A DNA stretch of 64,000 nucleotides. It comes from Oscillospiraceae bacterium. Lineage in GTDB: Bacteria > Bacillota > Clostridia > Oscillospirales > UBA929. Below are positions 4,381 through 59,675 of this stretch, piece by piece (position 1 is the first letter of the stretch; each line of letters starts with the position of its first letter). Below the pieces are notes generated by a model. The model was given only the letters and a program-made list of their open reading frames with translations. It had not been told where the DNA came from and searched no databases. The position numbers and the translations under genes are program-made. The stretch is taken from assembly GCA_031549605.1 (NCBI GenBank), contig JAVBPM010000005.1:2315-66314 (forward strand), written 5' to 3'.

Positions 4381-4448
4381 TCCTTATTGCCATTATACCA
4401 CATCGACACCGTGATGCAACGCAAACCGTTCAGGCGGCCTGCGAGAAA

Positions 4449-4755
4449 GAGACCCGCTGCTGTGCAGCGGGTCTCTCAGACTGTCAAAAAAGCGCGCACC
4501 GTAAAACCAGCGTCAGAAAAAGGAGAAACCGGCGACGCAAAGCTGTGTCTTGATTCTCGGCTAACAATTTTGCGGCGCACCGATAAGGTCGCTGCGCCGC
4601 AATGGTTTTACTTGCTGCAGAAACGCTGTCCTAGCGTACCATCGTACGCCGAAGGACAGCGTTTCTTTGCCTGCGCACTTCTTTGTCAGTTTGTCAGCGT
4701 GCCAAAAACAAGTTTTTTGACACGCTGCGAGACACGCTGCTGTGCAGCGGGTCTC
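4449..4755 (+). mobile_element. MITE-like non-coding element, copy 1 (core 4477-4728) with flanking duplicated 27-bp terminator hairpin (4449-4475 and 4729-4755)
   Basis: Core shares its first 33 nt exactly, and about 150 nt nearly exactly, with the copies at 34318-34570 and 59397-59631. Imperfect terminal inverted repeats are CAGACTGTCAAAAAA / TTTTTTGACACGCTG. Confidence 0.7.
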
Positions 4756-4776
4756 TTTCGCGCAAAACGGCTTCAA

Positions 4777-11735: not shown

Positions 11736-13160
11736 TTAGGCCAGGCGCAACAGGCCCTGCGGCCCGAGCAGCGACAACGGAGCCACCTGCAGGCTGCCGT
11801 CGCGGTAGGCAAAGCGGCCCAGAAGCGCCGAATACTGTGACAGGCGGCGACCCAGCAGCGATAGCACCGGCAGGGTGTCGGCCCAGCCACCGGAAACGGC
11901 GTTGGCCAGCTGAAACCACACAGTGCCGCAGCGCACGAAGTGGCCGCTCTTATCGGCAGAAAACTCGTCGCAGGAAAGCAACACATAGGGATGCCGACTA
12001 CAAAGCGGATTGATGAGCTGCTGCTTGACCTGACGGCAAATGTGCTCGCCGTCGGTCTGTCGGCATTGGCACGCGGCCTGCCAGTCGGCATCGTCCGGCG
12101 GTGTCATGGACGGCAACTCGTTCCAACGGATGCGACGGTTTTGGCCGGCCGTTGGATAGTGATAACACTGACGCACGGTCAGCATGCGGTCGCAGGAGTC
12201 TTCCTGTGGTACGTGCTGCACGGCGCGGTAAGGACGATAATTGACGCTTAGGTCAACGCGCGACTCCTCAAGGTTCAGCCACACGCCGAGGTCCTGATAG
12301 TGCAGTTCGGCCTCGTTGTCGTAGCAGGTGAAGGCCAGCTGCAGCAGGTGGGCTGTCGACGTATTTCCGATGGCCGCCAAGTCGCTCAGCTGCCACGCTG
12401 TGCCCAGTACGGCCTCGATTTCCGACGTAGTGTCGCGCGGCGCTTCAGGGTTGGCCAATCGGTCTTGCAGATAGCTGCGTCCACGCTGCACGAGGGCATG
12501 CACGCGCGCTGCGTCTTGACATACGATGGTATACATGGCCTCGGTGTCGGTCATGGCGAAGGTGTCCAACAGTTGTAGCAGAAGACCCTGCACGCCGGTC
12601 AGGTGGCAGTCGGCCAGCTGTTTGGTTTGGTTTTTCAGCGCCAGCAGCGTTTTTCCATTGACGGCTGCCAAGCCATTGGCGGTCAAAGCCTGCAGAACGG
12701 TTTCAGCCAGCGCTAACCCTTGCAGCTGTTGCTCAACCCGGCTGTTGCTGCGCGCGGTGCCGGCTGTTGTTGCTGCCGATGCCGCCGGCTTGGACTCGGC
12801 ACGTCGCGCCGCTTTTTCGCGCTTGTCAACCAACGGTTGCGGCAAGGCGGCGGTTGTAAACTTTCGGTTGCGCGCTTTGGCCAGCGTCAGCGCCAATGCA
12901 TGCTTGCACGGACGTTTGCGACTGGGGCAGCTGCAGCTGAAAGCGGGACTGGACTCGTCGGTAAAGTCGGCCGACACGGTGTAGCTGCTTTTGCCACTGC
13001 CGAGGCACTCACCAAAAAGGATGTGACCGTCGGGACTGCTATTCAGTTGCACCAGCTGGCCGGCTTGTTCTATCGCGTCGGCGTTGCGGAAGGAGGCCGG
13101 ATCGGGCGCTAAGGCCTTGACTACAGCTTCAGAAACGTGCACTTTGACCTCTCCCTCCAA
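11736..13160 (-). CDS. SWIM zinc-finger protein, YehQ-like
   Basis: CxCx7CxH SWIM signature FSCSCPSRKRPCKHALAL. The ORF-track start is a TTG. GTG at 13145 behind GGAGGGAGAGG is the likelier start. Confidence 0.8.
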   Translation of the reverse strand: MEGEVKVHVSEAVVKALAPDPASFRNADAIEQAGQLVQLNSSPDGHILFGECLGSGKSSYTVSADFTDESSPAFSCSCPSRKRPCKHALALTLAKARNRKFTTAALPQPLVDKREKAARRAESKPAASAATTAGTARSNSRVEQQLQGLALAETVLQALTANGLAAVNGKTLLALKNQTKQLADCHLTGVQGLLLQLLDTFAMTDTEAMYTIVCQDAARVHALVQRGRSYLQDRLANPEAPRDTTSEIEAVLGTAWQLSDLAAIGNTSTAHLLQLAFTCYDNEAELHYQDLGVWLNLEESRVDLSVNYRPYRAVQHVPQEDSCDRMLTVRQCYHYPTAGQNRRIRWNELPSMTPPDDADWQAACQCRQTDGEHICRQVKQQLINPLCSRHPYVLLSCDEFSADKSGHFVRCGTVWFQLANAVSGGWADTLPVLSLLGRRLSQYSALLGRFAYRDGSLQVAPLSLLGPQGLLRLA

Positions 13161-13320
13161 CCTTCTCTCTCTTCATCATACACCACCCATTAGGGCCTGT
13201 CAAACGACGCTACACCCTTTTTTTCGACATTTTTGGCACCGCTTGCGTTATGTCAACATAGACTGTAGTGGGTGCTGTCGGCAACGCCATCAGAACAACA
13301 TATATAAGGAGACATTGACT

Positions 13321-14394
13321 ATGGATTTGAAAAACTTTTATGAAAAGCTCGAGTTCGAGCCGACGGGAAAACCTCACAAGGAGGACCGCTGCTGCGGGTA
13401 TGACGGCTGTCACAAAAAGTGCGTCTGCATTTGCGAGGGCCCTAAAGGTGACCGTGGACCCTGCGGCCCCAAGGGTGAGACGGGCGATAAGGGCGAGCGC
13501 GGCCACAGGGGCGAGTGCGGCATGCCGGGTTGCCAGGGCGAGTGTGGACCTAAGGGCGAAAAAGGCGACAGGGGATGTCAAGGCGAGCGCGGCCCTAAGG
13601 GTGAGAAAGGCGAGCAGGGCAGCCGCGGTGAGTGCGGGCCCAAGGGTGAAAAAGGCGAGCAGGGTTGCCACGGCGAGCGCGGTCCTAAGGGTGAAAAAGG
13701 CGAGCAGGGCTGCCGCGGTGAGCGCGGTCCCAAGGGTGAAAAAGGCGAGCAGGGCTGCCACGGCGAGCGCGGGCCCAAGGGTGAAAAAGGCGAACAGGGC
13801 TGCCAGGGCGAACGTGGGCCTAAGGGTGAAAAAGGCGACTGTGGCGCTTGCGGCAGCGGCGAGCTGCTGGAAAACCCCGGCTTTGAGCACTGTCATTACG
13901 ACATTCCCTGCGGGTGGAAGCCCTGCTGCCAAGCCTGTGCCGATGATGCTGTGACAATGGCAACGGCGGACGGTCAGGCCGTTGAACCGGGCGAGGCTTT
14001 CCGACCCCACGCCGAGCGCAACATTGAGTGCGTCAACTGCGAGGGTACGGTTCACAGCGGCTGCCAAGCGGTGCGGCTAGAGGACAACGCCTGTTTATAT
14101 CAGACGGTCTACCGCGTTGAGAAAGACCGCTGCTATGCCTTCTCTTTCTTTGCCAAGGGCCAGGACGCCAAACTGACGGCTGAGGTGCTGTTTGAATCCA
14201 AGTGTAAGGATGAAACGGGCGCTTGCATCGTGGTGCGCGCCGGCGATTTGTGCTGTGACTGCTACGGCTATTACCGCGTCGTAACGTCCAAGGTGCCGTA
14301 CGACGTCGACTGCGTCACCGTGCGCTTTACCGTCGACGGCTGCGACTGCCGCGGCTATGTGCTGCTCGACGACGTTTCACTGACCGGCTGCTAA
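13321..14394 (+). CDS. Cys-rich collagen-like (Gly-X-Y) protein with a C-terminal jelly-roll/CBM-like domain; probable spore-surface or exosporium protein
   Basis: ATG 13321 behind AAGGAGA. About 47 uninterrupted GXY triplets (13438-13860). I count 37 Cys in 357 aa. The C-terminal domain is bracketed by ELLENPGFE ... VLLDDVSL. Confidence 0.85.
   Translation: MDLKNFYEKLEFEPTGKPHKEDRCCGYDGCHKKCVCICEGPKGDRGPCGPKGETGDKGERGHRGECGMPGCQGECGPKGEKGDRGCQGERGPKGEKGEQGSRGECGPKGEKGEQGCHGERGPKGEKGEQGCRGERGPKGEKGEQGCHGERGPKGEKGEQGCQGERGPKGEKGDCGACGSGELLENPGFEHCHYDIPCGWKPCCQACADDAVTMATADGQAVEPGEAFRPHAERNIECVNCEGTVHSGCQAVRLEDNACLYQTVYRVEKDRCYAFSFFAKGQDAKLTAEVLFESKCKDETGACIVVRAGDLCCDCYGYYRVVTSKVPYDVDCVTVRFTVDGCDCRGYVLLDDVSLTGC
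13582..13851 (+). repeat. six tandem 45-bp in-frame repeats encoding GE(R/C)GPKGEKGEQG(C/S)x
   Basis: Consecutive units GERGPKGEKGEQGSR / GECGPKGEKGEQGCH / GERGPKGEKGEQGCR / ...GCH / ...GCQ / GERGPKGEKGDCGAC, read directly from the sequence. Confidence 0.9.
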
Positions 14395-33875: not shown

Positions 33876-34283
33876 ATGGATTTTCAAGAGCTTTACCGCC
33901 GCGCCGCCGAGGTAGCGGTGCCGCATGAACTGTCCCTGTATGGGCTGTCCGGTGTTGTGGGCGCCGCCTTGCTGACGCAGCAGGGCCATGTCTATGTCGG
34001 CGTGAATGTTGATACCGCCTGTGCTGTTGGCTTTTGTGCCGAGCACGCCGCCGCGGCCGCCATGCTGACTGCGCACGAAAATGTGGTGGTGAAGATGATT
34101 GCCGTTAACAGCAATGGGCAGATTTTGCCGCCCTGCGGGCGGTGTCGCGAATTTATCAACCAGCTGTCTGATTTGAACTGCGACGCCGAGGTGATGATTG
34201 GTGTCGACAGCGTTGTCAGGTTGCATGAGCTGTTGCCTCACGACTGGCGCAAGGTGGCGCCTAAACAGGATTTTCCGTTGTAG
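33876..34283 (+). CDS. cdd: cytidine deaminase family protein (Cdd / blasticidin-S deaminase-like)
   Basis: CAEHAA (C/H-A-E) and PCGRCRE zinc-ligand motifs. 135 aa. Confidence 0.8.
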   Translation: MDFQELYRRAAEVAVPHELSLYGLSGVVGAALLTQQGHVYVGVNVDTACAVGFCAEHAAAAAMLTAHENVVVKMIAVNSNGQILPPCGRCREFINQLSDLNCDAEVMIGVDSVVRLHELLPHDWRKVAPKQDFPL

Positions 34284-34291
34284 CGCACAGA

Positions 34292-34595
34292 AGGACCGTG
34301 CCGGCCGGCACGGTCCTCAGACTGTCAAAAAAGCGCGCACCGTAAAACCACAGCGCCAGAAAAAAGAGGGAGCGGCGACGTAAGGCGGCGTTTTACTGCT
34401 CGGCTAATGATTTGCGGCGCATCGACAAGGTCGCTGCGCCGCAATGGTTTTACTTGATGCAGAAACGCTGTCCTTGCGTACCATCGTGCGCCGACGGACA
34501 GCGTTTCGTTGCCTGCGCACTTCTTTGTCAGTCTGTCAGCATGCCAAAAAACAAGTTTTTTGACGCGCTGAGGACCGTGCCGCCGGCACGGTCCT
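34292..34595 (+). mobile_element. MITE-like non-coding element, copy 2 (core 34318-34570) with flanking duplicated 25/26-bp terminator hairpin
   Basis: Same ends and internal hairpins as copy 1. Flanked by AGGACCGTGCCGGCCGGCACGGTCCT (34292-34317) and AGGACCGTGCCGCCGGCACGGTCCT (34571-34595). Confidence 0.7.
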
Positions 34596-56704: not shown

Positions 56705-58143
56705 AATCGGCTTTTCTACGCTATTTCCGCATGACTGCGCTGCTGTTATTTGTCAGCGTGCTGTCGATTGGAGTTGCCTTTTCCGGCCTAATTCGCAATT
56801 ACATTGCCGACCAGCGCGCGGCCCAGCTGCACAAGCACGCCGAAAGCTTGCGCACTTACGCTTCTCAGACCATCAACAATTCGCCCTTTATGGCACAGGA
56901 CAGCTCGTTTCGACGTACCATCAATTTGGTGGCCAACGTTTCGGATACGCAAATTCTGCTCGTTGATCTCAACGGCAACATCACCTTTGAGTCGGAAAAC
57001 TCGGTCGAAAAGACGGCAGGCGTCACCTCGGTCAGCCTCGATCTGGTCGACAACGTGTTAGACGGCCTGATGTTTGACAAAACGCGCAATTTTGAGGGCA
57101 CGCTGGGCGGCTATTACAGCAAGCCGCAAAGCACAGAGGTCGTGCCGGTTGTGTACAACGACCAGTACATCGCGCTTTTCTTTGTCTCTATGCCGGCCAA
57201 CAACTACGCGCCGCTAGCCACGGAGCTGCTGCGCATTTTCCTGCTGGTGTCGCTTCTGGTGCTGTTGATTGCGGCTGTGTTTGCCTATGTGCTGTCGCGC
57301 CGCATGATGCGGCCGCTGCGCTATATGCACACCGTTGTCTCCAGCTTCACGCTGGGTGATTTCGGCGCTCGCATCCCCATCACCGGCAAGCGTGACGACG
57401 AGTTTGTCGAGCTGGCGCGCGCCTTTAACTCGATGGCCGACGCGCTGGCGCAGGGTGAGACGCTGCGTCGCGGCTTTATCGCCAACATCAGCCACGAAAT
57501 GCGGACGCCCATGACCAACGTGCTGGGCTATATCAACGGCGTGCTGGACGGCACCATTCCGCCCGAGAGCACACAGCACTACCTCGGCATTATCAGCGAC
57601 GAAATCCAGCGCCTGTCGCGATTGATTCAGCGTATGATGGACCTGGCGCGGCTACAGTCGAGCCAATACGCCGTGCATCCGCGGCCGCTGCCGCTCAACG
57701 AGCTGGCCACGCGCGTGCTGCTCTCGTTTGAGACAAAAATCAATCAGCACAGCCTTGAGGTTGAGGCCGATTTTCCCGACGACAGCTGGTGCATGGCCGA
57801 CGCCGACGCCATTACACAGGTGCTGTTTAACCTGATTGAAAACGCCATCAAGTTTGCCGATGAGGGCTCGACGCTGCTGCTGGCGCTTTCGCACGGCGGC
57901 GGCAAGGTTTTTTTCTCGGTCAGTAACCATGGCACGCCGATACCGCCCGATGAGCTGCCCTTTATTTTTGACCGCTTTCACAAGGCCGACCGCTCGCGCG
58001 CGCTTGACCCGACCGGACTCGGGCTCGGTCTGTATTTGGTGAAAACGATTGTCAACGCCCACGGTGAGCAGGTTTCGGCGACCAGTCAGGGCGGCCTGAC
58101 CACCTTTGTCTTTTCACTGCCCAGCTGCAAAAAACCGAATTAG
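56701..58143 (+). CDS. sensor histidine kinase (two TM, extracytoplasmic loop, HAMP, HisKA, HATPase_c)
   Basis: H-box SHEMRTPMT, N-box NLIENAIKF, G-boxes. ATGA overlap with the regulator gene. Confidence 0.9.
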   Translation: MKSAFLRYFRMTALLLFVSVLSIGVAFSGLIRNYIADQRAAQLHKHAESLRTYASQTINNSPFMAQDSSFRRTINLVANVSDTQILLVDLNGNITFESENSVEKTAGVTSVSLDLVDNVLDGLMFDKTRNFEGTLGGYYSKPQSTEVVPVVYNDQYIALFFVSMPANNYAPLATELLRIFLLVSLLVLLIAAVFAYVLSRRMMRPLRYMHTVVSSFTLGDFGARIPITGKRDDEFVELARAFNSMADALAQGETLRRGFIANISHEMRTPMTNVLGYINGVLDGTIPPESTQHYLGIISDEIQRLSRLIQRMMDLARLQSSQYAVHPRPLPLNELATRVLLSFETKINQHSLEVEADFPDDSWCMADADAITQVLFNLIENAIKFADEGSTLLLALSHGGGKVFFSVSNHGTPIPPDELPFIFDRFHKADRSRALDPTGLGLGLYLVKTIVNAHGEQVSATSQGGLTTFVFSLPSCKKPN

Positions 58144-58153
58144 GAGCATCAGT

Positions 58154-59398
58154 ATGCCGAAAAAAAAGAGTGACCGCGCCTTTATTTTCACTGTTGTCGT
58201 GCTGACAACGGTGTTGTTTGGCATTATCACGACCGCCATTGTGCTGTTTACCGCCGGCCATGTCAAGATTTACTCCAACAACGGACATCTGACCATTGGC
58301 GTGCCGCCGGCATCCTTGGCGCCCACCGGCGCGGTACCGCCAGCCGACGGCTCGTCGCCAACGCCCTACGATGGCAGTCCCACGCCCGTGCCTACCTATC
58401 CCGGCGCGCAGTCGGGCAGCGGCGGTGTGGACGCGACGGTGCAAATTCTGCCGCCGCCCGTGGCGGCGACACCGCAGCCGGTGCTTGACGGCGTGCTGAC
58501 CACCGAGCAAATCGGCCAGCTGCTGACGCCCTCTGTTGTCGGTATTACCAGCACCAACAACGGTGTTGAAGGCGAAGCGACCGGCACCGGCATGATTTTC
58601 AGTGCCGACGGGCTGATTTTAACCAACAACCATGTCATCGAAGGCTTTGACACACTGACGGTCACGCTTTTCGACACTTCAGAGCACCCCGCGACGCTTA
58701 TTGGCCGCGACCGGCAGACCGATTTGGCCGTGCTGAAAATTGAGGCGGGTAAACCGTTGCGAGCGGTTGTCTTCGGCAATTCCGACCAGTTGTCGGTGGG
58801 CGAGCGCGCTGTGTGTATTGGCAACCCCTTCGGGCTTGAGCTGTCAGGCACGCTGACGCAGGGCGTTATCAGCGCTGTCAATCGCAGCATTTCGGTCGAC
58901 GATTTGACCATGACGGTCATCCAGATTGACGCCGCTGTCAATCCCGGCAACTCGGGTGGCCCGCTGATTAACCAGTACGGGCAGGTGGTCGGCGTCATTA
59001 GCAGCAAGCTGATGGGTAGCTTCAACACCGCCGTCGAGGGGCTTGGTTTTGCGATACCCATCGTTAAAGCCGCCCCGATTATTAACCAGCTGTTATCAAC
59101 CGGCTACATCGCAGGACGTCCGGCTATCGGCATTACCGGCACTGATACTCCGGCTCAAGGCGACGCGCCGGCCGGCTTTTTGGTTGCGACCGTGAGCCTC
59201 GACAGTGACGCCCACCGTGCCGGCATTAAGCCGGGCGACATCATCTACACCTTTAACGGGAAGACCATTACCACGCGCACCGAAATCAACGTCATTAAAA
59301 ACGACCTGAAAGCCGGCGACACTATTACCGTAGGCGTCTACCGCGACGGCGATCGTTTTGATGTAGATTTTAAGCTGATGGACGAGAGCGGCCATTAA
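58154..59398 (+). CDS. htrA: HtrA/DegP-family serine protease with a PDZ domain, membrane-anchored
   Basis: Catalytic TNNHV ... DLAVL ... GNSGGPL triad. C-terminal PDZ (GIKPGDIIYTFNG). AGGAG RBS. Confidence 0.9.
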   Translation: MPKKKSDRAFIFTVVVLTTVLFGIITTAIVLFTAGHVKIYSNNGHLTIGVPPASLAPTGAVPPADGSSPTPYDGSPTPVPTYPGAQSGSGGVDATVQILPPPVAATPQPVLDGVLTTEQIGQLLTPSVVGITSTNNGVEGEATGTGMIFSADGLILTNNHVIEGFDTLTVTLFDTSEHPATLIGRDRQTDLAVLKIEAGKPLRAVVFGNSDQLSVGERAVCIGNPFGLELSGTLTQGVISAVNRSISVDDLTMTVIQIDAAVNPGNSGGPLINQYGQVVGVISSKLMGSFNTAVEGLGFAIPIVKAAPIINQLLSTGYIAGRPAIGITGTDTPAQGDAPAGFLVATVSLDSDAHRAGIKPGDIIYTFNGKTITTRTEINVIKNDLKAGDTITVGVYRDGDRFDVDFKLMDESGH

Positions 59399-59661
59399 CT
59401 TGACTTGGCACGCTGCAGACTGACAAAGACGTGCGCAGGCAAAGAAACGCTGTCCGTCGGCGTAGGATGGTACGCTAGGACAGCGTTTTTGCAGCAAGTA
59501 AAACCATTGCGGCGCAACGACCTTGTCGATGCGCCGCAAATCATTACCCGGGTATCAATACGCAGCCTCACGCCGCCGTGTCCTCTCTTTCCTGATACTG
59601 GTTTTACGGTGCGCGCTTTTTTGACAGTCTGCAAAGGACGCAGGGCAAGCCTGCGTCCTTT
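59397..59661 (-). mobile_element. MITE-like non-coding element, copy 3 (core 59397-59631, inverted) plus one adjoining terminator hairpin (59633-59661)
   Basis: The reverse complement starts with the same 33 nt as copies 1 and 2 and shares the conserved about 150-nt hairpin region. It lacks the TTTTTTGAC end and the second hairpin copy. Its truncated end abuts the htrA stop codon. Confidence 0.65.
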
Positions 59662-59675
59662 TGTTCTATCAATTA

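What the first reader, a model, noticed from the sequence alone, without database searches (positions are those of the whole stretch)
4449..4755. Family of about 250-bp TIR-bounded, hairpin-rich non-coding elements (three copies in 64 kb)
Seen: one sequence recurs in intergenic DNA at 4477-4728 (+), 34318-34570 (+) and 59397-59631 (-). The first 33 nt are identical in all three (CAGACTGTCAAAAAAGCGCGCACCGTAAAACCA). A variable stretch of about 55 nt follows. Then come about 150 nt with only scattered substitutions, folding into two long hairpins. These are TTGCGGCGCA…TGCGCCGCAA, and GAAACGCTGTCC…GGACAGCGTTTC with a nested GCGTAC…GTACGC. One substitution in copy 2 turns a T-A pair into T-G, which is compatible with RNA pairing. 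The ends are imperfect inverted repeats (CAGACTGTCAAAAAA / TTTTTTGACACGCTG, 13 of 15), and each contains an outward-facing TTGACA hexamer. There is no transposase-sized ORF and no RBS. Inference: this is a non-autonomous MITE-like element or a mobile structured-RNA gene. The outward -35-like hexamers could influence neighbours (DRTGG gene, pgcA, udp).
Basis: seen in the sequence. Interest (0 to 1): 0.65.

Follow-up and report, generated by a model that had tools for sequence, protein, structure and literature searches.

The report
Miniature IS1182 transposon duplicating terminator hairpins
The three repeats are copies of a small transposon with no transposase gene, derived from an IS1182-type insertion sequence, that lands at the foot of transcription-terminator hairpins and duplicates the whole hairpin; this is a tidy example of a known kind of mobile DNA, not a new RNA gene.

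Summary
There are three copies of a roughly 250-bp element, with an identical 33-nt left end and 87-89% identity overall. It carries imperfect terminal inverted repeats, is strongly self-complementary, has no coding signal and matches no Rfam family.

The two complete copies are each flanked by a direct duplication of a GC-rich terminator hairpin specific to that locus (29 bp and 26 bp). The duplication spans exactly the hairpin, foot to foot. The third copy abuts a hairpin on its left and is truncated on its right.

The termini (CAGACTGTCAAAAAAG) match the ends of IS1182-family insertion sequences at 14 of 16 positions when anchored at the tip. One such IS sits after the pgcA terminator of a 71%-related organism. 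All 22 readable ends across 15 sampled IS1182 copies abut a hairpin. Five of the ten copies with both flanks readable carry perfect whole-hairpin duplications of 19-35 bp.

The element is therefore a MITE of a hairpin-targeting IS1182 clade, presumably moved in trans by a transposase encoded outside the window. The readings as a structured-RNA gene or an outward promoter find no support.

One thing is unexplained. About 190 nt, including two internal hairpins, differ by about 5% between copies, while a 59-nt segment differs by 25-32%. I class this as a new member of a known kind, of modest interest.

The parts
4448..4476 (.). Copy 1, left copy of the duplicated target hairpin (AGAGACCCGCTGCTGTGCAGCGGGTCTCT, a perfect 13-bp stem)
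   Evidence: families D12, D20; -16.2 kcal/mol as DNA, z = -7.3
4477..4727 (+). MITE copy 1, complete (251 bp)
4728..4756 (.). Copy 1, right copy of the duplicated target hairpin (27 of 29 identical to the left copy)
34292..34317 (.). Copy 2, left copy of the duplicated target hairpin (AGGACCGTGCCGGCCGGCACGGTCCT), downstream of the cytidine-deaminase-like gene 33876-34283
34318..34570 (+). MITE copy 2, complete (253 bp)
34571..34595 (.). Copy 2, right copy of the duplicated target hairpin. It has a 1-nt loop deletion and is followed by TTTTCGTT. It serves as a shared terminator for the convergent cdd-like gene and pgcA.
34318..34339 (+). Left terminal inverted repeat (IRL) of copy 2, CAGACTGTCAAAAAAGCGCGCA. 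Its first 16 nt match the left ends of the IS1182 copies in L083 and L088 at 14 of 16 positions.
34351..34409 (+). Variable segment (25-32% divergent between copies, against about 5% elsewhere)
34412..34444 (+). Internal hairpin A (TTGCGGCGCA...TGCGCCGCAA). It is enclosed, together with the variable segment, by the GTAAAACCA (34342-34350) / TGGTTTTAC (34445-34453) stem.
34459..34512 (+). Internal hairpin B (GAAACGCTGTCC...GGACAGCGTTTC, with the nested GCGTAC/GTGCGC stem), followed by a T-rich run
34514..34535 (+). Internal inverted copy of IRL (TGCGCACTTCTTTGTCAGTCTG, 19 of 22 complementary to positions 1-22). It corresponds to the internal inverted copy of the left end (here called IRL') found just inside the left end of full-length IS1182 copies, or to an inner right end.
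34537..34570 (+). Right-end A/T hairpin plus the right terminal inverted repeat (IRR, ...CAAGTTTTTTGACGCGCTG)
59405..59631 (-). MITE copy 3. Its right end is truncated, with the last 25 nt or so and the second hairpin copy missing. It abuts the stop codon of the htrA-like ORF 58106-59398.
59632..59662 (.). Copy 3, single target hairpin at the left end of the element (AAAGGACGCAGGCTTGCCCTGCGTCCTTT). It is a bidirectional terminator between udp and the htrA-like gene.

Best explanation
The repeats are a family of miniature inverted-repeat transposable elements (MITEs) of about 250 bp, derived from an IS1182-family insertion sequence.

Proposed mechanism, with its status:
- The element keeps the IS ends but has no transposase gene. 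It must be mobilised in trans by an IS1182-type DDE transposase encoded elsewhere in the genome. This is inferred: no such gene lies in the 64-kb window.
- The target is a structure, not a sequence: GC-rich stem-loops of intrinsic terminators. This is shown by the three different hairpins that abut the element.
- The two element ends are joined to opposite strands at the two feet of the palindrome, probably while it is extruded as a cruciform. Gap repair then duplicates the whole hairpin. The outcome is shown by the 29-bp and 26-bp duplications that coincide exactly with the stems. The cruciform step is inferred, following the model published for IS1272.
- Each insertion therefore leaves a terminator on both sides and should disturb the neighbouring genes little.
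- The internal hairpins and the stem that closes positions 1-22 against 197-218 are an expanded version of the IRL/IRL' hairpin found at the left end of full-length relatives. Their low divergence suggests that they act in cis in transposition. This last point is inferred.
For: Evidence that this is a discrete mobile unit:
- Three copies lie in unrelated intergenic contexts with sharp common ends.
- Both complete copies are flanked by direct repeats that differ between loci and are the same on the two sides of each copy. They are exactly the terminator hairpin, stem foot to stem foot.

Evidence for the link to IS1182:
- In a metagenomic contig from an organism whose pgcA is 71% identical (L083), an IS with ends CAGCCTGTCGAAAAAG / CTTTGTCGACAGGCTG directly follows the pgcA terminator hairpin. 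It encodes a fragment matching NCBIfam NF033551, IS1182 family transposase (E = 6.8e-61).
- The MITE's left tip matches the left tips of the IS1182 copies in L083 and L088 at 14 of 16 positions when anchored at the tip. It matches other members of the clade at 11-13 of 16 (the L085-L087 rows of that call were mis-registered, and their true tips can be read).
- Among all 127,968 16-mers of the window, only six match the L083 end at 13 of 16 or better. Four of those six are MITE termini.
- I sampled 15 IS1182 copies (L083, L085-L090, L093-L101). All 22 of their readable ends (14 left, 8 right) abut a hairpin directly.
- In ten copies both flanks are readable. Five of these carry perfect whole-hairpin direct duplications: 30, 19, 24, 19 and 35 bp in L090, L093, L094, L096 and L097.
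- Full-length copies have IRL followed by an internal inverted copy of itself. The MITE has the same architecture at 1-22 / 197-218.

Published support:
- IS1272 and TnSha1 (IS1182 family) target terminator hairpins without primary-sequence specificity (PMC4923244).
- A published model explicitly predicts whole stem-loop duplication when the ends attack the 5' feet of the cruciform (PMC5678879, Fig. 13, pathway b).
- MITEs of an IS1182-family element, ISMac2, are known (PMC3852290).
Against: - No IS1182 transposase lies in the window. The rest of the genome could not be reached, so a cognate autonomous partner is not shown.
- Sequence similarity to IS1182 elements is confined to the terminal 16 nt or so. 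An unanchored local alignment of those 16 nt is not significant on its own.
- No true empty site from a closely related strain was available. L082 (pgcA 74% identical) has a single terminator and no element, but its synteny differs.
- No further copy was found in 185,579 species-representative genomes, in JGI metagenomes, IMG/VR, plasmids or phages.
- Five of the ten sampled IS1182 copies with both flanks readable have two different hairpins at their two ends. Whole-hairpin duplication is therefore not the only outcome.
- Conservation of about 190 nt, well beyond the inverted repeats, is more than a minimal MITE needs.
Confidence: 0.85

Rival explanations
1. The element is a structured non-coding RNA gene, or a cis-regulatory RNA, that has been spread or duplicated. 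The hairpins would be RNA helices, and the flanking GC hairpins its own terminators or insulators.
For: - The fold is very stable (RNA -113 kcal/mol, z = -5.9).
- About 190 nt are much more conserved than the 59-nt variable segment.
- In the conserved stems, three one-sided changes give G-U on the + strand, against one that gives A-C.
Against: - There is no Rfam match at gathering or relaxed thresholds.
- There is no sigma-70-like promoter in or next to any copy.
- The opposite strand folds even better (z = -8.1), as expected of DNA palindromes.
- Only one compensatory pair is seen, and it lies in the variable part.
- The flanking hairpins differ between loci, so they derive from the target and are not part of a gene.
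- The termini match the ends of a transposon family.
Confidence: 0.07
2. It is a MITE, but of another transposon family (IS5, IS4/IS231, IS630, or a Correia- or RUP-like element). On this reading the resemblance to IS1182 ends would be coincidental.
For: - The IS5 and IS1182 transposases are related: the L083 fragment also hits IS5 models weakly.
- The sequence link rests on short inverted repeats.
Against: - To my knowledge (ISfinder tables recalled from memory, not checked here), those families make short fixed duplications of 2-12 bp. Here the duplication is 26-29 bp and equals the hairpin.
- This behaviour is found directly in IS1182-family copies and is predicted for that family (PMC5678879).
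- The best NCBIfam hit of the neighbouring IS with near-identical ends is IS1182 (E = 6.8e-61, against 6e-19 for IS5).
Confidence: 0.05
3. The repeats are not mobile. They would be remnants of segmental duplication, or a REP-like host repeat associated with terminators and maintained by recombination.
For: - All copies sit at terminators between genes.
- No transposase is nearby.
- No other copies were found in public collections.
Against: - The flanking genes and flanking hairpins are unrelated between copies.
- The boundaries are sharp and marked by inverted repeats.
- Each complete copy carries its own duplicated target.
Confidence: 0.03

Closest known systems
IS1272 / TnSha1 (IS1182 family, Staphylococcus)
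   Same: Both belong to the same IS family. Both target stem-loops, mostly intrinsic terminators, with no primary-sequence specificity, in either orientation, immediately downstream of genes (PMC4923244, PMC5678879).
   Different: IS1272 and TnSha1 delete or replace part of the target hairpin and leave no duplication. Here the whole hairpin is duplicated, which is pathway b of the published model rather than pathway a. IS1272 is autonomous (about 1.9 kb, from memory), whereas this element is about 250 bp with no transposase gene.
Full-length IS1182-family copies of Bacillota
   Same: The copies compared include those on plasmids of Sutcliffiella horikoshii, Bacillus sp. S3, Peribacillus sp. 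R9-11, Enterococcus casseliflavus, Cytobacillus firmus and Thermocaproicibacter melissae, and the ISEfa7-type copy. They share CAG-NN-TGT... termini, ends that abut hairpins, whole-hairpin duplications of 19-35 bp, and an IRL followed by an internal inverted copy of itself.
   Different: Those elements carry a transposase gene of about 1.3-1.4 kb. Similarity to the MITE is limited to the termini and the overall architecture. The MITE has about 175 nt of unrelated, hairpin-rich sequence in the IRL/IRL' loop.
MITEs of ISMac2 (IS1182 family) in Methanosarcina acetivorans (PMC3852290)
   Same: They are also non-autonomous derivatives of an IS1182-family element: 160-169 bp, inverted repeats of 25-26 bp, multiple copies.
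   Different: They are archaeal and are reported with direct repeats of 4 or 0 bp, with no hairpin duplication. No sequence relationship was tested.
Palindrome-targeting IS elements such as IS1397 / ISKpn1 (IS3 family, which insert into REP/BIME loops), and class C group II introns (which insert after terminators). This comparison is recalled from memory and was not tested.
   Same: They also use extragenic palindromes or terminators as safe landing sites.
   Different: They have different transposition chemistry and ends, and none duplicates the whole hairpin. No Rfam group II intron hit was found here.

Membership tests
MITE (non-autonomous DDE-transposon derivative) | Small size, with no transposase or other coding capacity | tested here: met
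   The element is 251-253 bp. tblastn with IS1182 transposases finds nothing in the window. The open frame through the core shows substitutions at 6/8/8 over the codon positions and 16 non-synonymous against 6 synonymous codon differences.
MITE (non-autonomous DDE-transposon derivative) | Terminal inverted repeats | tested here: met
   CAGACTGTCAAAAAA against CAGCGTGTCAAAAAA: 13 of 15 in copy 1 and 12 of 15 in copy 2
MITE (non-autonomous DDE-transposon derivative) | Target-site duplication flanking each insertion, differing between loci | tested here: met
   Copy 1 has 29 bp (27 of 29 identical). Copy 2 has 26 versus 25 bp (one indel). Copy 3 is truncated on one side.
MITE (non-autonomous DDE-transposon derivative) | Multiple dispersed copies in unrelated contexts | tested here: met
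   There are three copies in 64 kb between unrelated genes. A Logan short-read contig of the same organism ends inside the element. That fits a repeat, though it is not proof.
MITE (non-autonomous DDE-transposon derivative) | Ends shared with an autonomous element present in the same genome | not testable with these tools
   Only the 64-kb window is available, and attempts to extend the contig failed. The nearest autonomous relatives found are in other organisms (L083 and L088, 14 of 16 at the tip).
IS1182 family (as a derivative) | Termini homologous to those of elements encoding an IS1182 transposase (NCBIfam NF033551) | tested here: met
   The L083 ORF scores E = 6.8e-61 against NF033551. 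Tip-anchored identity is 14 of 16 to L083 and L088 and 11-13 of 16 to the other correctly registered left ends. Four of the six best matches in the window to the L083 end are MITE termini. The similarity does not extend inward.
IS1182 family (as a derivative) | Insertion at palindromes or stem-loops, with duplication of variable length (ISfinder lists direct repeats of 0-60 bp; recalled from memory) | tested here: met
   All three MITE copies abut perfect 11-13-bp stems. The same holds for every readable end of the 15 sampled IS1182 copies. Five of the ten copies with both flanks readable have whole-hairpin duplications. Hairpin targeting in this family is published (PMC4923244, PMC5678879).
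Known structured RNA family (Rfam) | Covariance-model match at or near the gathering score | tested here: not met
   No hit at gathering. The best relaxed hits score 13-18 bits against cut-offs of 42-114.
Structured RNA gene in general | Compensatory base changes, own promoter, strand-specific fold | tested here: inconclusive
   One compensatory pair among 77. No promoter-like site. Both strands fold well (z = -5.9 and -8.1). Three copies give little statistical power.
IS200/IS605-derived palindrome-associated elements (PATEs) | No terminal inverted repeats, no target duplication, insertion 3' of a fixed tetra- or pentanucleotide (from established knowledge) | tested here: not met
   Terminal inverted repeats and long target duplications are present.

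The most novel reading that the evidence does not exclude
The roughly 175-nt hairpin-rich interior (the GTAAAACCA/TGGTTTTAC stem, hairpins A and B) may not be junk carried between two IS ends. It could be a functional module under purifying selection.

Two forms of this are not excluded. It could be a cis-acting DNA structure that mimics the cruciform target and is required for hairpin-directed transposition. Or it could be a passenger structured RNA spread by the MITE.

The uneven divergence (about 5% against 25-32%) is what such selection would produce. The evidence here does not exclude either form.
Probability: 0.15. Interest if true: 0.55.

Novelty: new member of a known kind. Interest (0 to 1): 0.3.

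Why it matters
The transposition mechanism of the IS1182 family is still undescribed. Its habit of recognising DNA shape (stem-loops) rather than sequence is known mainly from IS1272, which destroys its target.

This MITE, and the full-length relatives examined here, show the complementary outcome. The whole terminator is duplicated exactly, foot to foot, whatever its length (19-35 bp). That is direct natural evidence for strand transfer at the base of an extruded cruciform.

A 250-bp element defines a small set of cis requirements that could be tested in a transposition assay.

For annotation, the pattern to recognise is two identical terminators about 250 bp or 1.5 kb apart, bracketing CAG..TGTC.. 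ends. That pattern is an IS1182-type insertion, not a small-RNA gene. Such insertions are expected to be nearly neutral, because a terminator is kept on both sides.

Tried and rejected
Searches that found nothing:
- Exact-pattern scans for the 33-mer (genome representatives), the 22-nt core (JGI metagenomes) and the 24-nt left end (metagenomes; IMG/VR).
- blastn of the element against plasmids and phages.
- An nhmmer profile of the three copies against 1.33 Mb of loci from related Oscillospiraceae.
- Rfam at gathering and at relaxed thresholds.

Ideas tested and rejected:
- A guide-like relation between the variable segment and the flanking hairpin. Matches to the cognate hairpin (4-6 nt) are no longer than matches to non-cognate hairpins.
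- A small protein encoded by the TTG-initiated ORF through the core. The substitution pattern is not that of a coding sequence.
- Outward hybrid promoters from the TTGACA hexamers. No -10 partner exists.
- Homology of the interior to the IS1182 5' region. Nothing beyond the 16-nt tip is significant.

Attempts that failed:
- Extending the window's 80-kb contig to look for the transposase.
- Finding the exact parent IS among close relatives of the L083 transposase. All of these have related ends, but none has identical ones.

Families considered and rejected (see the membership table): IS200/IS605 PATEs, group II introns, Correia- or REP-type repeats, retron RNA and IS110 bridge RNA. The last two were not pursued because no reverse transcriptase or recombinase was seen beside the element and the ends match a DDE IS family.

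Full report
**1. The observation**

The 33-nt sequence CAGACTGTCAAAAAAGCGCGCACCGTAAAACCA occurs exactly three times in the window, at 4477 (+), 34318 (+) and 59631 (-). None is expected by chance. The copies align over their whole length at 87-89% identity. A profile search finds no further copy in the window.

The exact limits are 4477-4727, 34318-34570 and 59631-59405 (-). The third copy lacks the last 25 nt or so.
- A variable stretch of 59 nt, 68-75% identical between copies, while the other segments are 90-100% identical.
- The T-A to T-G change in copy 2.
- The 13-of-15 terminal inverted repeat.
- The TTGACA hexamers in both ends.

**2.

Copy 1 is bracketed by AGAGACCCGCTGCTGTGCAGCGGGTCTCT (4448-4476) and CGAGACACGCTGCTGTGCAGCGGGTCTCT (4728-4756). 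Copy 2 is bracketed by AGGACCGTGCCGGCCGGCACGGTCCT (34292-34317) and the same sequence minus one loop base (34571-34595).

These are perfect 11-13-bp GC-rich stem-loops. They lie where the terminators of the neighbouring genes should be. They differ between loci but are the same on the two sides of each copy. They are therefore target-site duplications, and each duplication spans exactly one hairpin from foot to foot.

Copy 3 abuts a third, unrelated hairpin at its left end (59632-59662). That hairpin is a bidirectional terminator between udp and an htrA-like gene. On its right, copy 3 is truncated at the htrA-like stop codon.

**3. Internal anatomy**

- Positions 1-22 are complementary to positions 197-218 in 19 of 22 positions.
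- GTAAAACCA pairs with TGGTTTTAC and encloses the variable segment plus hairpin A.
- Hairpin B follows.
- The right end is an A/T hairpin that contains the right inverted repeat.

The whole element folds into one closed structure, as DNA or RNA and on either strand (z = -6.3, -5.9 and -8.1). Only one of the 77 predicted pairs shows a compensatory change.

The evidence against an RNA gene or a coding sequence is as follows:
- Rfam gives nothing at gathering or at relaxed thresholds.
- No promoter-like site lies in or beside any copy.
- The open frame through the core shows no coding signature.

**4. Where it comes from**

The organism is a deep-branching member of, or relative of, the Oscillospiraceae. 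The best pgcA match among 185,579 species-representative genomes is 56-58% identical. The element itself was not found in any public collection that could be scanned.

The wider protein collection holds three closer pgcA relatives, at 69-74% identity. In one of them (L083, 71%), the pgcA terminator hairpin is followed directly by an IS with these features:
- Its ends are CAGCCTGTCGAAAAAG ... CTTTGTCGACAGGCTG.
- It encodes a truncated transposase.
- That protein matches NCBIfam NF033551, IS1182 family transposase (E = 6.8e-61).

I then read the ends of homologues of this transposase on metagenomic contigs and on complete plasmids. Four things emerged.

- **Termini.** The clade has CAG-NN-TG... 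termini, for example CAGACTGTAGACAAA, CAGACTGTCGACAAA and CAGCCTGTCGAAAAAG. The MITE tip CAGACTGTCAAAAAAG matches L083 and L088 at 14 of 16 positions when anchored at the tip, and matches other members at 11-13 of 16. In the whole window only six 16-mers match the L083 end at 13 of 16 or better, and four of them are MITE termini.
- **Hairpin flanks.** All 22 readable ends of the 15 sampled copies abut a hairpin directly.
- **Whole-hairpin duplications.** Of the ten copies with both flanks readable, five carry perfect direct duplications of the whole hairpin:
  - Sutcliffiella horikoshii, 30 bp
  - Bacillus sp. S3, 19 bp
  - Peribacillus sp. R9-11 plasmid pB, 24 bp
  - Enterococcus casseliflavus, 19 bp
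  - Cytobacillus firmus, 35 bp
  - The other five have two different hairpins at their two ends.
- **Left-end architecture.** The left end of full-length copies is IRL followed by an internal inverted copy of itself and a T-run. The MITE has the same arrangement at 1-22 / 197-218, but with about 175 nt in the loop.

**5. Interpretation**

The element is a MITE of a hairpin-targeting IS1182 clade. The published record fits:
- IS1272 and TnSha1, which are IS1182-family members, insert into terminator hairpins without sequence specificity (PMC4923244).
- The model proposed for IS1272 states that attack at the 5' feet of an extruded cruciform would duplicate the whole stem-loop (PMC5678879, Fig. 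13, pathway b).
- MITEs of an IS1182-family element are known in Methanosarcina (PMC3852290).
- From memory, ISfinder lists direct repeats of 0-60 bp for this family.

The status of each step is as follows.
- Shown here: the ends, the structure-defined duplication, and the family link through the termini and through insertion behaviour.
- Inferred: mobilisation in trans by a transposase elsewhere in the genome (none lies in the window, and the contig could not be extended), and the cruciform geometry of strand transfer.

**6. Rivals**

- A structured-RNA gene is not excluded as a passenger function, but nothing positive supports it.
- A MITE of another IS family is unlikely, because the hairpin-length duplication is seen directly in IS1182 copies.
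- Segmental duplication is excluded by the unrelated flanks.
- The variable segment is not a guide for the target. Matches to the cognate hairpin are no better than matches to non-cognate hairpins.

**7. What remains unexplained**

- Divergence is very uneven: 25-32% in the 59-nt segment against about 5% in the other 190 nt or so (Fisher p between 4e-5 and 3e-7). Drift after insertion appears low, since the duplicated hairpins differ by only one or two positions. The pattern therefore implies that lineages of the element have long kept hairpins A and B and the closing stems intact. This points to a cis-acting role beyond the inverted repeats, or to some other selected function.
- Half of the IS1182 copies with both flanks readable have different hairpins at their two ends.
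- The MITE has two nested right ends, an inner one at positions 206-218 and an outer one at 239-253. The duplication flanks the outer one.

**8. Verdict**

The MITE reading is supported and sharpened, and the readings as an RNA gene or an outward promoter are not supported. This is a new member of a known kind. It is a clean natural example of whole-terminator duplication by an IS1182-type element, useful for annotation and as a minimal substrate for studying an uncharacterised transposition mechanism. It would not surprise a specialist. Interest is 0.3.

Noticed in passing
window 8749, 9528, 10921, 11473, 27658, 28061, 30794, 32952, 34605, 52359, 55271, 62638 (15 nt each); also L082 about 2588-2602: The palindrome GCAACC-N3-GGTTGC occurs 12 times in 64 kb, against 0.03 expected. 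One occurrence overlaps the pgcA stop, 9 nt from the hairpin duplicated by MITE copy 2. The same motif follows pgcA in a relative whose pgcA is 74% identical. It could be a REP-like repeat, an uptake or recognition signal, or a regulator site.
   Followed up: partly
window 59396-59405: MITE copy 3 is truncated exactly where the htrA-like ORF (58106-59398) stops. The TAA stop lies at the junction, with two of its bases coming from the element. The present C-terminus and stop of this gene may have been created by a deletion that also removed the MITE's right end and the second hairpin copy.
   Followed up: no
window 13447-13844: A tandem repeat of period 45 nt has about 7 copies, 63-70% identical to the first. 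It lies inside the ORF 13084-14394 (+) and is probably a repetitive 15-residue protein motif.
   Followed up: no
L083 2389-3450; L088 with L091; L095; L098; L099: Five IS1182 copies are flanked by two different hairpins rather than by a duplication. In each case the right-hand hairpin carries the T-run of a real terminator. This suggests a second insertion outcome, or recombination between copies.
   Followed up: partly
L094 and L095, about 265-460: In two Peribacillus IS1182 copies, a GC-rich insert of about 180 nt lies between the IRL/IRL' hairpin and a second IRL'-like sequence (CCGCGGGCGGTCAGGGAGCCTCCTCGGCGCC...). The region just inside the left end therefore tolerates extra structured DNA in full-length elements too.
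   Followed up: no
L001 4781-4860: The only other public contig carrying the gene next to copy 1 is from Logan run SRR23967709. It ends 31 nt inside the MITE. This is what a short-read assembly does at a multi-copy repeat, and it identifies a sample that holds this rare organism.
   Followed up: partly
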